The position numbers and the translations under genes were made by a program. A DNA stretch of 64,000 nt from positions 505,159 through 569,158 of the forward strand of contig OY969622.1 in assembly GCA_963701665.1 (NCBI GenBank). Reading direction: 5' to 3'. Positions 23,627 through 24,825 of this stretch are shown here, piece by piece. Numbering within the stretch: the stretch's first letter is position 1; every line of letters starts with the position of its first letter. This DNA is from Candidatus Babeliales bacterium (lineage in GTDB: Bacteria; Babelota; Babeliae; Babelales; JANWKD01). Below the pieces are notes generated by a model that was not told the DNA's origin, searched no databases, and worked only from the letters and a program-made list of their open reading frames with translations.

Positions 23627-23704
23627 TGTATGTTAAAACAAAAAGCATTTAAGAGTAAATTGTGATAATTTAAGAATGAAATATTGTTTAATATCGGTTG
23701 TTTG

Positions 23705-23846
23705 AGAAAAGCTGATAGATCTCGTCACGCTCCTGGTTTAGAAGAACCGTTCCTGAGTTTGAGACTATCAGCTTACACAAAATTACCTCGAACAATCACT
23801 AGAGACGTATTAGGTATACGATCTCGTATGTTTACAAGGCTGAGGT
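23705..23846 (+). ncRNA. Candidate bridge-RNA-type guide RNA of IS110 copy 1
   Basis: Conserved stem 23711-23723 / 23761-23772. Its loop holds cgctcCT (equals the left flank) and tcctgAG (reverse complement of the right flank). The second loop holds acaatcaCT (equals the IS right end) and tacaAG (reverse complement of the IS left end). Ends are approximate. Confidence 0.65.
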
Positions 23847-23850
23847 ATTT

Positions 23851-24792
23851 ATGAAAAACATAGCAGAAGTATATGTAGGTGTCGATATTTCAAAAAATAA
23901 TCTCGATATTTATGTGTATCCTATAGGAAAATTCTTTAAAGTAGCTAACTCAGAAGTTGGCATACAGAACATAATCAAGGAATTAGCTCACTATCAAGTT
24001 ACACAAATTGCCTGTGAAGCAACAGGTGGCTATGAACAATTACTTGCCCAATTACTCAAAAAGAACCGATATTCACTTTGGATCGTTGATCCACGAAGGA
24101 TAAAAGCTTTTATTATAGCTACTGGCTGTAAAAGTAAAACCGATAAAATTGATGCTAAAAAAATTGCTGAATTCGCTTCTAAAAATTCTCCTAGTTACGA
24201 GATTGTTAACAAAAGTGAGAATCAGCATAAACTACAAGCTCTAGTTAACCGTAAAAATGATTTAGTAAAATTTTTAGCTGCTGAGAAAACACGACTTAAA
24301 CATCCTTCTCACGTATTATATGTTCCTGATATAAAAAGATTTATTGCACTCTTAGAAAGTGAAATTAAATCAATTGAGTCTCGAATACAGGATTTAGTCA
24401 AAGATGATGAAGAGTTACATACAAAATCAAACATTTTGGAATCAATCCCAGGAATCGGTAAAGCTACAGCTGCAACATTACTTTCTTTTGTCCCTGAGCT
24501 TGGGCAGTTAAGCGACAAAAAAATATCCGCTCTAATTGGTGTCTGTCCTTATGACAATGAAAGCGGCAATTACAAAGGCAAAAAATTTATTAAGCATGGC
24601 AGGCATATTCCTCGTAAAGCACTTTATATGTGTGCATTGACCACGGTAAAGCACCATCTTCCTTTAAGGGAATTTTACCAGCGATTAATGGATGCTAAAA
24701 AACCTTTTAAAGTAGCTATCGTTGCTATTATGCATAAGCTCATTATAATTGCCAATGCTCTATTAAAAAGGGGCGAGTTATGTAGAGCTTGA
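23851..24792 (+). CDS. IS110-family transposase/recombinase (DEDD RuvC-like domain + C-terminal Ser Tnp domain)
   Basis: GVDISK, CEATGGY, IVDPRR and KTDKIDA form the DEDD pattern. The C-terminus has SIPGIG...LIGVCPYDNESGNYKGKK. Confidence 0.9.
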   Translation: MKNIAEVYVGVDISKNNLDIYVYPIGKFFKVANSEVGIQNIIKELAHYQVTQIACEATGGYEQLLAQLLKKNRYSLWIVDPRRIKAFIIATGCKSKTDKIDAKKIAEFASKNSPSYEIVNKSENQHKLQALVNRKNDLVKFLAAEKTRLKHPSHVLYVPDIKRFIALLESEIKSIESRIQDLVKDDEELHTKSNILESIPGIGKATAATLLSFVPELGQLSDKKISALIGVCPYDNESGNYKGKKFIKHGRHIPRKALYMCALTTVKHHLPLREFYQRLMDAKKPFKVAIVAIMHKLIIIANALLKRGELCRA

Positions 24793-24825
24793 CTATAAAA
24801 ATATTTGACTTTTAACACAATCACT

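What the first reader, a model, noticed from the sequence alone, without database searches (positions are those of the whole stretch)
23627..24825. Joining the IS ends would assemble a sigma70-like promoter (TTGACT-17-TATGTT) pointing into the guide RNA and recombinase
Seen in sequence. Both copies end with ttgacttttaacacaatcact (copy 1 TTGACT at 24805-24810; copy 2 at 30761-30766) and begin with tgtatgtt. Joining the right end to the left end gives TTGACT, 17 nt (15 from the right end plus tg), then TATGTT (23629-23634). In the integrated state the -35 position is occupied by unrelated flank. Established knowledge: several IS families, IS110 members included, form circular intermediates whose junction creates a strong promoter. 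Inference: expression of the RNA and recombinase is coupled to excision or circularisation. This also independently supports the element boundaries I called.
Basis: inference. Interest (0 to 1): 0.6.

Follow-up and report, generated by a model that had tools for sequence, protein, structure and literature searches.

The report
Circle-junction promoter of two IS110 elements
Two different IS110-family mobile elements in this genome each carry half of a promoter at either end, so that joining the ends in the excised circle would switch on their guide ("bridge") RNA and recombinase; this is the same switch already shown experimentally for the E. coli element IS621, so it is a sound call but an ordinary one.

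Summary
Joining right end to left end with one CT core gives TTGACT-17 nt-TATGTT in both elements (23627-24825 and 29600-30781). They are two distinct IS110-group elements (recombinases 69% identical), not copies of one IS. An uninterrupted paralogue of copy 1's target repeat at 39160-39274 confirms its boundaries and the CT core. Alone, the motif is weak evidence: 3.5% of random junctions give an equally good site.

The comparative evidence is strong. In 15 distinct relatives (45-82% aa) conservation starts exactly at the first T of the -35, and variants stay promoter-like in the same register (TTTACA-17-TATGCT, TTGATT-17-TATGAT). None of 13 integrated copies has a promoter in that register. 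Relatives at 33-35% identity from Dehalococcoidia and Opitutales, and E. coli IS621 itself (TTGCAG-17-TATTAT), share the geometry: -35 ending 15 nt from the right terminus, -10 at left-end positions 3-8.

Downstream lies a bridge RNA whose loops match each element's flanks and ends. No circle junction was found in assemblies, and activity is untested. Verdict: interpretation supported; a new member of a known kind; low to moderate interest.

The parts
23627..24825 (+). Element A ('copy 1'): IS110-group insertion sequence, 1199 bp including the right-hand CT core
   Evidence: Ends; empty-site paralogue; family alignment.
23625..23626 (+). CT core copy abutting the left end of element A
   Evidence: the empty site has a single CT.
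23629..23634 (+). -10 half of the junction promoter, TATGTT (left-end positions +3 to +8)
   Evidence: A at position 2 and T at position 6 are invariant in 15/15 relatives. IS621 has TATTAT at the same position.
23641..23641 (+). Predicted transcription start (left-end position +15, an A), 7 nt after the -10
   Evidence: Inference. The recalled 177-nt IS621 bridge RNA sequence, which matched E. coli genomes at 100%, begins at LE +15 in the genomic copy.
23641..23850 (+). Bridge RNA of element A (approximate extent). Target-binding stem-loop about 23710-23773; donor-binding stem-loop about 23786-23846
   Evidence: RNAalifold consensus: 31 pairs, 13 with compensatory changes. Loop/flank and loop/end matches. 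Coordinates. MFE z-score -2.5.
23851..24792 (+). Recombinase ORF A, 313 aa, with D12, E56, D98, D101 and S238
   Evidence: Pfam PF01548 + PF02371; PDB ISCro4 3e-37 and IS621 1.5e-35; residues.
24805..24810 (+). -35 half of the junction promoter, TTGACT (right-end positions -21 to -16)
   Evidence: Conservation jumps from 0.25 to 1.65 bits exactly at -21. Matches TTGACA at 5/6 in 13 of 15 relatives.
24811..24825 (+). Right-end part of the spacer. Contains the arm of the sub-terminal inverted repeat (TTTTAACA, 24810-24817), the donor sequence ACAATCA and the CT core (24824-24825)
29600..30781 (+). Element B ('copy 2'): a second, different IS110-group element, 1182 bp. -10 TATGTT 29602-29607; predicted start 29614; ORF 29817-30764; -35 TTGACT 30761-30766 (contains the stop codon TGA 30762-30764); CT core 30780-30781
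23527..23626 (+). Left part of the REP-like repeat that element A is inserted in; the right part continues from 24826
   Evidence: Repeat families D7, I5, I7, I8 and I10; alignment by eye with 39160-39274.
39160..39274 (-). Unoccupied paralogue of element A's target repeat (empty site, single CT)
23449..23482 (+). Hairpin (15-bp stem) followed by TTTTTT after the upstream gene; likely terminator insulating the integrated element A from read-through
   Evidence: Hairpin; sequence. The insulating function is inferred.
23857..23885 (-). Candidate antisense promoter at the 5' end of ORF A (TCGACA-17-TATGTT preceded by TGc); the same site in element B is at 29823-29851

Best explanation
Each element is an IS110-group, bridge-RNA-guided insertion sequence with a split promoter. 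The right end carries a -35 hexamer (TTGACT) ending 15 nt before the terminus. The left end carries a -10 hexamer (TATGTT) at positions 3-8. While the element is integrated, GC-rich target-repeat DNA sits where the -35 should be, and terminator-like hairpins lie just upstream, so the bridge RNA and recombinase are at most weakly expressed. Excision joins the right end to the left end through one CT core. That creates TTGACT-17-TATGTT, which should start transcription about 15 nt into the left end (23641 and 29614). The transcript runs through the roughly 200-nt bridge RNA and into the recombinase gene, so expression rises only in the excised circle and favours re-insertion. Shown here: the sequence anatomy, boundaries, conservation, RNA structure and guide matches, and geometry identical to IS621. 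Inferred: circle formation, promoter use by this host's polymerase, the start site, and the low expression of integrated copies.
For: (1) The strings and the 17-nt spacing are present in both elements.
(2) The boundaries and single CT core are fixed by an empty-site paralogue.
(3) In 15 distinct elements of 45-82% aa identity, the junction always gives a -35-like hexamer, a 16-17 nt spacer and a TAnnnT -10. Variants remain promoter-like: TTTACA-17-TATGCT in L090, TTGATT-17-TATGAT in L012, TTGCTT in L006, and a 1-nt spacer deletion in L009 that gives 16 nt.
(4) Conservation begins exactly at the first base of the -35. The stretch between the stop codon and the -35 varies in both length and sequence.
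(5) RNA-DNA pairing accounts only for right-end -9 to -1 and left-end +1 to +4. The inverted repeat accounts for -16 to -9 and +5 to +12. TTGAC at -21 to -17 has no other explanation.
(6) Relatives at 33-35% identity in GC-richer hosts have TTGACA-N15|TG-TATGTT with different spacer sequences.
(7) IS621 read from an E. coli genome has TTGCAG-N15|TG-TATTAT in the same register, with the bridge RNA 5' end at LE +15. Its junction promoter is experimentally supported, and a 22-bp donor lacking the -35 still recombines when the RNA is supplied in trans (PMC11208160, PMC13626964). ISPpu10's junction promoter was shown by a lacZ fusion (PMC12288879).
(8) No integrated copy has a site of 9/12 or better in that register. 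The left end paired with random upstream DNA makes a promoter only 2-3% of the time.
(9) There is no conserved internal sense promoter in the left end.
(10) Downstream lies a bridge RNA with covariation and matching guides.
Against: No circle or tandem junction was found in metagenome contigs, viral contigs or the fetched loci, although transient circles are not expected in assemblies. Promoter activity is untested, and the host appears to be an uncultivated Dependentiae/Babeliales bacterium whose promoter consensus is not established; only 2 of 4 tRNA genes in the window have a 9/12 match upstream. The -10 is only 4/6. As a single observation the site is not very improbable (about 3.5%). The spacer and the -10 region are at least as conserved as the -35 and overlap recombination-related constraints, so their conservation cannot be credited to the promoter. 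ISPpu9 shows that an IS110 element can do without a junction promoter (PMC12288879).
Confidence: 0.8

Rival explanations
1. The conserved terminal block is purely a recombination site: donor sequence read by the bridge RNA, a sub-terminal inverted repeat, and recombinase contacts. On this view its resemblance to a promoter is incidental and it drives no transcription.
For: Right-end -15 to -1 and left-end +1 to +12 are as conserved as the -35 or more so. Right-end -9 to -1 equals the donor-loop guide and covaries with it. Right-end -16 to -9 is the exact reverse complement of left-end +5 to +12, and its inner 4 bp covary out to IS621. Short sub-terminal inverted repeats flanking the donor are known in IS110 elements (PMC11208160).
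Against: None of these constraints reaches TTGAC at -21 to -17, which is still conserved, and conservation starts exactly there. Substitutions keep the sigma70 consensus rather than one fixed sequence. Distant relatives keep TTGACA at the same distance with different spacers. In IS621 the same positions are a working promoter, and the -35 is dispensable for recombination (PMC11208160).
Confidence: 0.08
2. The RNA and recombinase are expressed mainly from the integrated element, by read-through or an internal promoter. The junction promoter adds little, as in ISPpu9.
For: ISPpu9 uses a native promoter and forms no hybrid promoter (PMC12288879). IS621 shows low-level read-through expression that is sufficient for excision (PMC13626964). 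Element B has an internal 9/12 site at 29727-29755.
Against: No internal sense promoter is conserved across the 15 elements. Both window elements lie between convergent genes, with terminator-like hairpins just upstream. The family-wide conservation of the split promoter would then have no explanation.
Confidence: 0.08
3. The match is chance in an AT-rich genome.
For: Sites of 9/12 or better are common: 32 found against 26.5 expected in 7.7 kb. 3.5% of random junctions produce one.
Against: The same register recurs in 15 diverged elements, in elements from other phyla, and in IS621.
Confidence: 0.01
4. The right-end -35 serves mainly as an outward-facing half-promoter that activates genes next to the insertion.
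For: The right end joined to random downstream DNA yields a site of 9/12 or better in about 20% of trials.
Against: Neither window insertion forms such a site: the hexamers at the -10 position are GGATGA and AGGACT. In both cases the downstream genes are on the opposite strand.
Confidence: 0.03

Closest known systems
IS621 of Escherichia coli (IS110 group; bridge RNA and RE-LE junction promoter)
   Same: DEDD + Tnp recombinase (33% aa identity, E = 1e-43). CT core. The left end starts TGTAT. The -35 ends 15 nt from the right terminus, the -10 is at left-end +3 to +8, the spacer is 17 nt, and the RNA 5' end is at +15. The bridge RNA lies in the left end and has target and donor loops. Both insert into REP-like repeats.
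   Different: The hexamers differ: TTGCAG/TATTAT in IS621 against TTGACT/TATGTT here. The sub-terminal inverted repeat matches at 5 of 8 positions in IS621 (inner 4 bp paired) against a full 8 bp here. The conserved antisense promoter candidate is absent from IS621. The host is Dependentiae-like, not Enterobacteriaceae. The window elements have not been tested experimentally.
ISPpu10 of Pseudomonas putida (IS110 group)
   Same: A weak or absent native promoter plus a strong hybrid junction promoter, with the -35 from the right end and the -10 from the left. CT core. REP-like target. An antisense RNA starts just upstream of the recombinase gene (PMC12288879).
   Different: No sequence comparison was made here. 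In ISPpu10 the antisense RNA and promoter activities were measured, whereas here they are only predicted.
ISPpu9 of Pseudomonas putida (counter-example)
   Same: IS110 family, forms minicircles, has a REP target.
   Different: ISPpu9 forms no hybrid promoter and relies on a native promoter (PMC12288879). The window elements have the hybrid arrangement and no conserved native promoter.
Pjunc promoters of IS492 and ISEc11 (IS110/IS1111 family) and of the IS3, IS21 and IS30 families
   Same: The -35 lies in one end and the -10 in the other, assembled only in the circle, and this boosts transposase expression (cited in PMC12288879 and in the reference list of PMC13626964).
   Different: The IS3, IS21 and IS30 families use DDE transposases and have no guide RNA. 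In IS1111-group elements the guide RNA lies in the right end.

Membership tests
IS110 family, IS110 group (bridge-RNA-guided recombinase elements) | [quoted passage not shown] | tested here: met
   Both ORFs hit both Pfam models. D12, E56, D98, D101 and S238 are present in both and invariant in 23 relatives. Homology to IS621 and ISCro4 structures.
IS110 family, IS110 group (bridge-RNA-guided recombinase elements) | Long left non-coding end encoding an RNA with two stem-loops, each with a large internal loop | tested here: met
   Left ends are 224 and 217 nt. RNAalifold on 15 sequences gives 31 pairs, 13 with compensatory changes. No Rfam family matched.
IS110 family, IS110 group (bridge-RNA-guided recombinase elements) | One loop matches the target flanks and the other the element ends, with the core dinucleotide included in each pairing | tested here: met
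   The target loop 5' side equals the left flank + CT (10/10 in element B, 7 contiguous in element A). The 3' side is the reverse complement of CT + right flank. The donor loop equals the last 9 nt of the right end in 14 of 15 elements and covaries with it (CAATTACT, CAATCTCT); L012 differs at the core.
IS110 family, IS110 group (bridge-RNA-guided recombinase elements) | Sequence-specific, scarless insertion at a core dinucleotide, with no longer target duplication | tested here: met
   The empty paralogue has a single CT, and the occupied site has CT on both sides.
IS110 family, IS110 group (bridge-RNA-guided recombinase elements) | No long terminal inverted repeats, only a short (2-3 bp) sub-terminal inverted repeat | tested here: inconclusive
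   There are no terminal inverted repeats, but the sub-terminal inverted repeat is 8 bp (TTTTAACA/TGTTAAAA). That is longer than described for the IS110 group and within the 7-17 bp quoted for IS1111 (PMC11208160). The RNA is nevertheless in the left end, as in the IS110 group.
IS110 family, IS110 group (bridge-RNA-guided recombinase elements) | Double-stranded circular intermediate | not testable with these tools
   Junction patterns were absent from metagenome contigs, viral contigs and the fetched loci. Raw reads could not be searched.
Hybrid junction promoter (Pjunc) of circularising IS elements | -35 in one end and -10 in the other, 16-18 nt apart once the ends are joined | tested here: met
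   TTGACT-17-TATGTT in both elements.
Hybrid junction promoter (Pjunc) of circularising IS elements | Promoter absent in the integrated configuration | tested here: met
   No site of 9/12 or better in that register in either window element or in any of the 13 integrated relatives tested.
Hybrid junction promoter (Pjunc) of circularising IS elements | Arrangement conserved among relatives and positionally equivalent to a validated example | tested here: met
   15 of 15 clade members, 3 distant families, and IS621 in the same register.
Hybrid junction promoter (Pjunc) of circularising IS elements | Measured transcription initiation from the junction | not testable with these tools
   Requires a reporter assay, in vitro transcription or 5'-end mapping.

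The most novel reading that the evidence does not exclude
In this Dependentiae-associated clade the junction promoter may be one layer of a denser switch than is described for IS621. (1) An 8-bp sub-terminal palindrome overlaps the promoter spacer and the -10, so recombinase binding and polymerase binding at the junction could compete. (2) A clade-specific antisense promoter with an extended -10 (TGn) fires from the first codons of the recombinase gene back across the ribosome-binding site and the donor loop. (3) The ribosome-binding site itself forms the basal stem of the donor loop, so a given transcript could act either as guide RNA or as mRNA. In addition, the two diverged elements in one genome share identical donor ends and donor loops but have different target loops. 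Either recombinase-RNA complex could therefore mobilise the other element's circle to its own target.
Probability: 0.2. Interest if true: 0.45.

Novelty: new member of a known kind. Interest (0 to 1): 0.25.

Why it matters
It confirms that the excision-coupled promoter switch described for IS621 and ISPpu10 extends, in an identical register, to IS110 elements of the little-studied Dependentiae (TM6) lineage and to Dehalococcoidia and Opitutales. That makes the split promoter an ancient, conserved part of the bridge-recombinase life cycle. In practice, the fixed geometry (-35 ending 15 nt from the right terminus, -10 at left-end +3 to +8) is a quick way to call IS110 boundaries and bridge RNA 5' ends in unannotated genomes. 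It opens no new question on its own.

Tried and rejected
(1) Circle or tandem junctions in assemblies. The exact 22-mer gave 0 hits in metagenome contigs. The degenerate 20-mer gave 4 hits, all chance matches inside phage-like coding sequence. A generalised pattern gave 0 hits in viral contigs and in all 92 loci.
(2) Homologues with N-terminally extended ORF calls on contigs near element length looked like possible circular assemblies. L081 and L082 proved to be ordinary integrated copies with short flanks. For P0016 and P0084 no DNA was available.
(3) Rfam has no family matching the left-end RNA.
(4) Host promoter usage. tRNA upstream regions gave only 2 of 4 weak matches, which is not decisive.
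(5) No empty site for element B was found in the window.
(6) An extended -10 reading of the left end was rejected: TG abuts TATGTT directly, not in the TGn register.
(7) An outward hybrid promoter from the right-end -35 was rejected for both insertions.
(8) The ends of L011, L013 and the deltaproteobacterial group (L015-L017) could not be fixed with the simple approach used, so they were left out.

Full report
OBSERVATION.
- Element A: TTGACT at 24805-24810, followed by 15 nt (tttaacacaatcact) to 24825. The left end begins tgtatgtt at 23627, with TATGTT at 23629-23634.
- Element B: TTGACT at 30761-30766, the element ending at 30781. The left end begins at 29600.
Joining right end to left end gives TTGACT-17 nt-TATGTT. 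This holds if the circle keeps one copy of the CT dinucleotide that flanks the element on both sides.

BOUNDARIES. The window holds an uninterrupted paralogue of the REP-like repeat that element A sits in. On the minus strand at 39160-39274 it reads ...tctggatccccacggcgtttcgcgcCTcgggatgacg. Around element A the sequence is ...tctggatccccacgtcgcttcgctcCT|element...aatcaCT|cgggatgacattc. This fixes the boundaries to the base (23627-24825, 1199 bp) and shows a single CT in the empty site. Further unoccupied members of the repeat family lie at 7405-7514, 19654-19818 and 45134-45318. No empty site for element B is present in the window.

WHAT THE ELEMENTS ARE. Both ORFs (23851-24792 and 29817-30764) match Pfam DEDD_Tnp_IS110 and Transposase_20. 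Both carry D12, E56, D98, D101 and S238. Both are homologous to the solved bridge recombinases ISCro4 (E = 3e-37) and IS621 (E = 1.5e-35; 33% identity). The two proteins are only 69% identical, and the DNA is about 75-80% identical in the ungapped repeat segments. They are therefore two different insertion sequences, not copies of one. Only the termini are invariant between them: 21 nt at the right end and 12 nt of the element's left end, or 14 nt counting the CT core.

Close relatives (59-76% aa) occur in Babeliales/Dependentiae genome bins. A second repeat family in the window resembles the target of one of those relatives. The window therefore probably comes from a Dependentiae (TM6) bacterium; this is an inference.

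WHAT LIES DOWNSTREAM OF THE PROMOTER. I aligned the left ends of 15 distinct elements. RNAalifold gives two stem-loops, each with a large internal loop: 31 pairs, 13 of them kept through compensatory changes. The loops match as follows:
- The 5' side of the first loop equals the left flank plus CT (10/10 in element B; CGCTCCT in element A).
- The 3' side of the first loop is the reverse complement of CT plus the right flank.
- The 5' side of the second loop equals the last 9 nt of the right end in 14 of 15 elements and changes with it (CAATTACT in L007 and L009, CAATCTCT in L089); L012 differs at the core.
- The 3' side of the second loop ends in TACAAG, the reverse complement of CT+TGTA.
This is the bridge RNA architecture of Durrant et al. 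2024 (PMC11208160). Rfam has no model for it.

IS THE PROMOTER MORE THAN CHANCE? On its own, barely. Sites matching 9/12 or better occur at 0.0016 per position in this AT-rich window, and 3.4-3.5% of random junctions give one that straddles the join. The weight lies in comparison.

I collected 15 distinct elements of 45-82% aa identity from genome bins and metagenomes. All of them give a -35-like hexamer, a 16-17 nt spacer and a TAnnnT -10 when the ends are joined. Thirteen have 5/6 in the -35. The variants stay promoter-like in the same register:
- L090: TTTACA-17-TATGCT
- L012: TTGATT-17-TATGAT
- L006: TTGCTT
- L009: a 1-nt spacer deletion that still gives 16 nt

The per-position profile has sharp edges. 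The sequence between the stop codon and the -35 varies in both length and content (0.25 bits at -22). Conservation starts at the first T of TTGACT (1.65 bits at -21). On the left end it stops after +12, three bases before the predicted start site.

WHICH PART OF THAT CONSERVATION BELONGS TO THE PROMOTER? Not all of it.
- RNA pairing explains right-end -9 to -1 and left-end +1 to +4.
- Right-end -16 to -9 (TTTTAACA) is the exact reverse complement of left-end +5 to +12 (TGTTAAAA). The match is 8/8 in both window elements against a chance rate of 5e-5. There are compensatory changes in L004 (TTTCAACA/TGTTGAAA) and L012 (ATCA/TGAT), and the inner 4 bp pair in the same register in IS621 (ATAA/TTAT).
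- Durrant et al. describe a 2-3 bp sub-terminal inverted repeat flanking the donor in IS110-group elements. Here it is 8 bp.
The spacer and the -10/discriminator are thus doubly constrained. Only TTGAC at -21 to -17 is left with no explanation other than a -35. In IS621 a 22-bp donor that lacks the -35 box still recombines when the RNA is supplied in trans, so that region is not needed for recombination.

GENERALITY AND THE LINK TO A VALIDATED CASE. Multi-copy relatives at 33-35% identity let me fix boundaries by comparing copies.
- Two Dehalococcoidia families give TTGACA-N15|TG-TATTGTT-type ends, namely TTGACA-N15|TG-TATGTT, with different and GC-richer spacers.
- An Opitutales family gives TTGCTT-N15|TG-TAGGTT.
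I then fetched a genomic IS621 copy. The query was the bridge RNA sequence recalled from memory. It matched 100% in E. coli, and the adjacent gene is annotated as an IS621 family transposase. Its ends read ...aaaaaacTTGCAGgccataacagtatCT| and |tgTATTATccctccAGTGCAG.... That is TTGCAG-17-TATTAT, with the -35 ending 15 nt from the right terminus, the -10 at +3 to +8, and the RNA 5' end at +15. The window elements have exactly this geometry.

For IS621, small-RNA-seq showed transcription starting at this junction promoter (PMC11208160). A linear construct lacking it gave only low-level read-through expression (PMC13626964). ISPpu10's junction promoter was shown with a lacZ fusion, whereas ISPpu9 forms none (PMC12288879). 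The feature is therefore not automatic for the family, and testing for it here was meaningful.

INTEGRATED STATE. None of the 13 integrated relatives that could be tested, and neither window element, has a site of 9/12 or better in the junction register. The left end joined to random upstream DNA forms one in only 2-3% of trials. No internal sense promoter is conserved in the left end.

Both window elements lie between convergent genes. Upstream of element A are a PEP-utilising enzyme gene and a small ORF; downstream is a glyoxalase-family gene on the other strand. Upstream of element B are small ORFs; downstream is a CAAX protease gene on the other strand. A strong hairpin followed by a T-run sits at 23449-23482, and a weaker one at 29564-29578, just upstream of the left ends. 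By analogy with the IS621 experiment in which an upstream terminator abolished detectable excision, the integrated copies are probably nearly silent. This is an inference.

DIRECT EVIDENCE FOR CIRCLES. None was found. The exact junction 22-mer is absent from metagenome contigs. A degenerate 20-mer hit four contigs, but all are chance matches inside a conserved phage-like gene. A generalised pattern is absent from viral contigs and from all 92 fetched loci. Two short contigs that might have been circular assemblies are ordinary integrated copies. Circles are transient and are not expected in assemblies, so this neither supports nor refutes the model.

VERDICT. It is a correct recognition of a known mechanism in two previously uncharacterised elements, so I rate it a new member of a known kind, with interest about 0.25.

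The side observations are the more original material, though each has a precedent: the 8-bp sub-terminal palindrome, a clade-specific antisense promoter candidate, the ribosome-binding site buried in the donor-loop stem, and two diverged elements sharing one donor code.

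Noticed in passing
window 23857-23885 (-) and 29823-29851 (-); same register in L001-L013 and L081-L090: Candidate antisense promoter inside the first codons of the recombinase gene: TCGACr-17-TAnnnT with an invariant TG at -15/-14 (extended -10). It is present in all 15 clade members and in L011 and L013 (42-46% aa), but absent from IS621 and from nearly all relatives of 43% identity or less. 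The TG is the 'CA' of codon 5, whose amino acid varies (Ala/Ser/Pro/Thr) while CA does not, which suggests a nucleotide-level constraint. The transcript would run antisense to the ribosome-binding site and the donor loop. Asr9 and Asr10 of ISPpu9 and ISPpu10 are precedents (PMC12288879).
   Followed up: partly
window 24810-24817 with 23631-23638; 30766-30773 with 29604-29611: 8-bp sub-terminal inverted repeat (TTTTAACA / TGTTAAAA) that makes the reconstituted junction a near-palindrome. There are compensatory changes in L004 and L012, and the inner 4 bp pair in IS621. It is longer than the 2-3 bp described for IS110-group elements and overlaps the promoter spacer and the -10.
   Followed up: partly
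window 23787-23790 with 23842-23845; 29756-29759 with 29808-29811: The recombinase Shine-Dalgarno sequence (GAGG) is the 3' strand of the basal stem of the donor-binding stem-loop (CCUC...GAGG; one search pairs 180-183/238-241). Bridge RNA folding would therefore occlude the ribosome-binding site. A literature search for this combination found nothing.
   Followed up: partly
window 23786-23846 and 29755-29813, with the termini of both elements: The two diverged elements (69% aa) have identical donor ends and identical donor-loop 5' guides but different target loops. Either ribonucleoprotein could in principle act on the other element's circle, which would be a natural case of one donor code with two target codes in one genome.
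   Followed up: no
window 7405-7514, 12536-12585, 19654-19818, 39160-39274, 45134-45318: A REP- or MITE-like repeat family of about 110 bp (gtcattgcgagc...ggcgtggcaa...ggatccccacg...cctcgggatgac). It is the target of element A, and several copies are unoccupied.
   Followed up: partly
window 27940-27987, 54903-54947, 56823-56870 (next to tRNA genes at 27809-27883, 54716-54802, 56658-56734): A second repeat family (ttcgtttatccgcgccttccggctcggcaaact...) closely resembles the insertion target of the L001-type element in a Babeliales genome bin (ttcgcttatccacgccttccggcttggcaagct|IS). These are unoccupied here, and they hint at the window's taxonomic origin.
   Followed up: no
window 24789-24794 and 30761-30766: In element B the stop codon TGA lies inside the -35 hexamer TTGACT. 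Element A has a second TTGACT 16 bp upstream that contains its stop codon, as if the -35 region had been duplicated.
   Followed up: no
L006 about 1258-1293: The first 18 bp of the left end (TGTATGTTAAAAATAGCT) are tandemly duplicated at the insertion site in a Dependentiae genome bin. This may be a footprint of an aberrant or half-site recombination event.
   Followed up: no
L092 1588-1730 (E. coli NZ_CP063349.1): A partial IS621 left end (about 70 bp, ending at atcgggcCT) is followed directly by a complete IS621. It looks as if one copy inserted into the DNA that encodes the target-binding loop of another, which mimics the target. The same two-piece match appears in several E. coli genomes.
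   Followed up: no
L083-L086: The 20-mer AACACAATCACTTGTATGTT occurs by chance inside a conserved phage-like coding sequence in four metagenome contigs. This is a caution for junction mining with short patterns.
   Followed up: yes
RE positions -30 to -26 across the family (window 24796-24800): A weakly conserved A-tract (about 1 bit) lies 5-10 nt upstream of the -35, where a proximal UP-element subsite would sit. In an AT-rich genome this is weak evidence.
   Followed up: no
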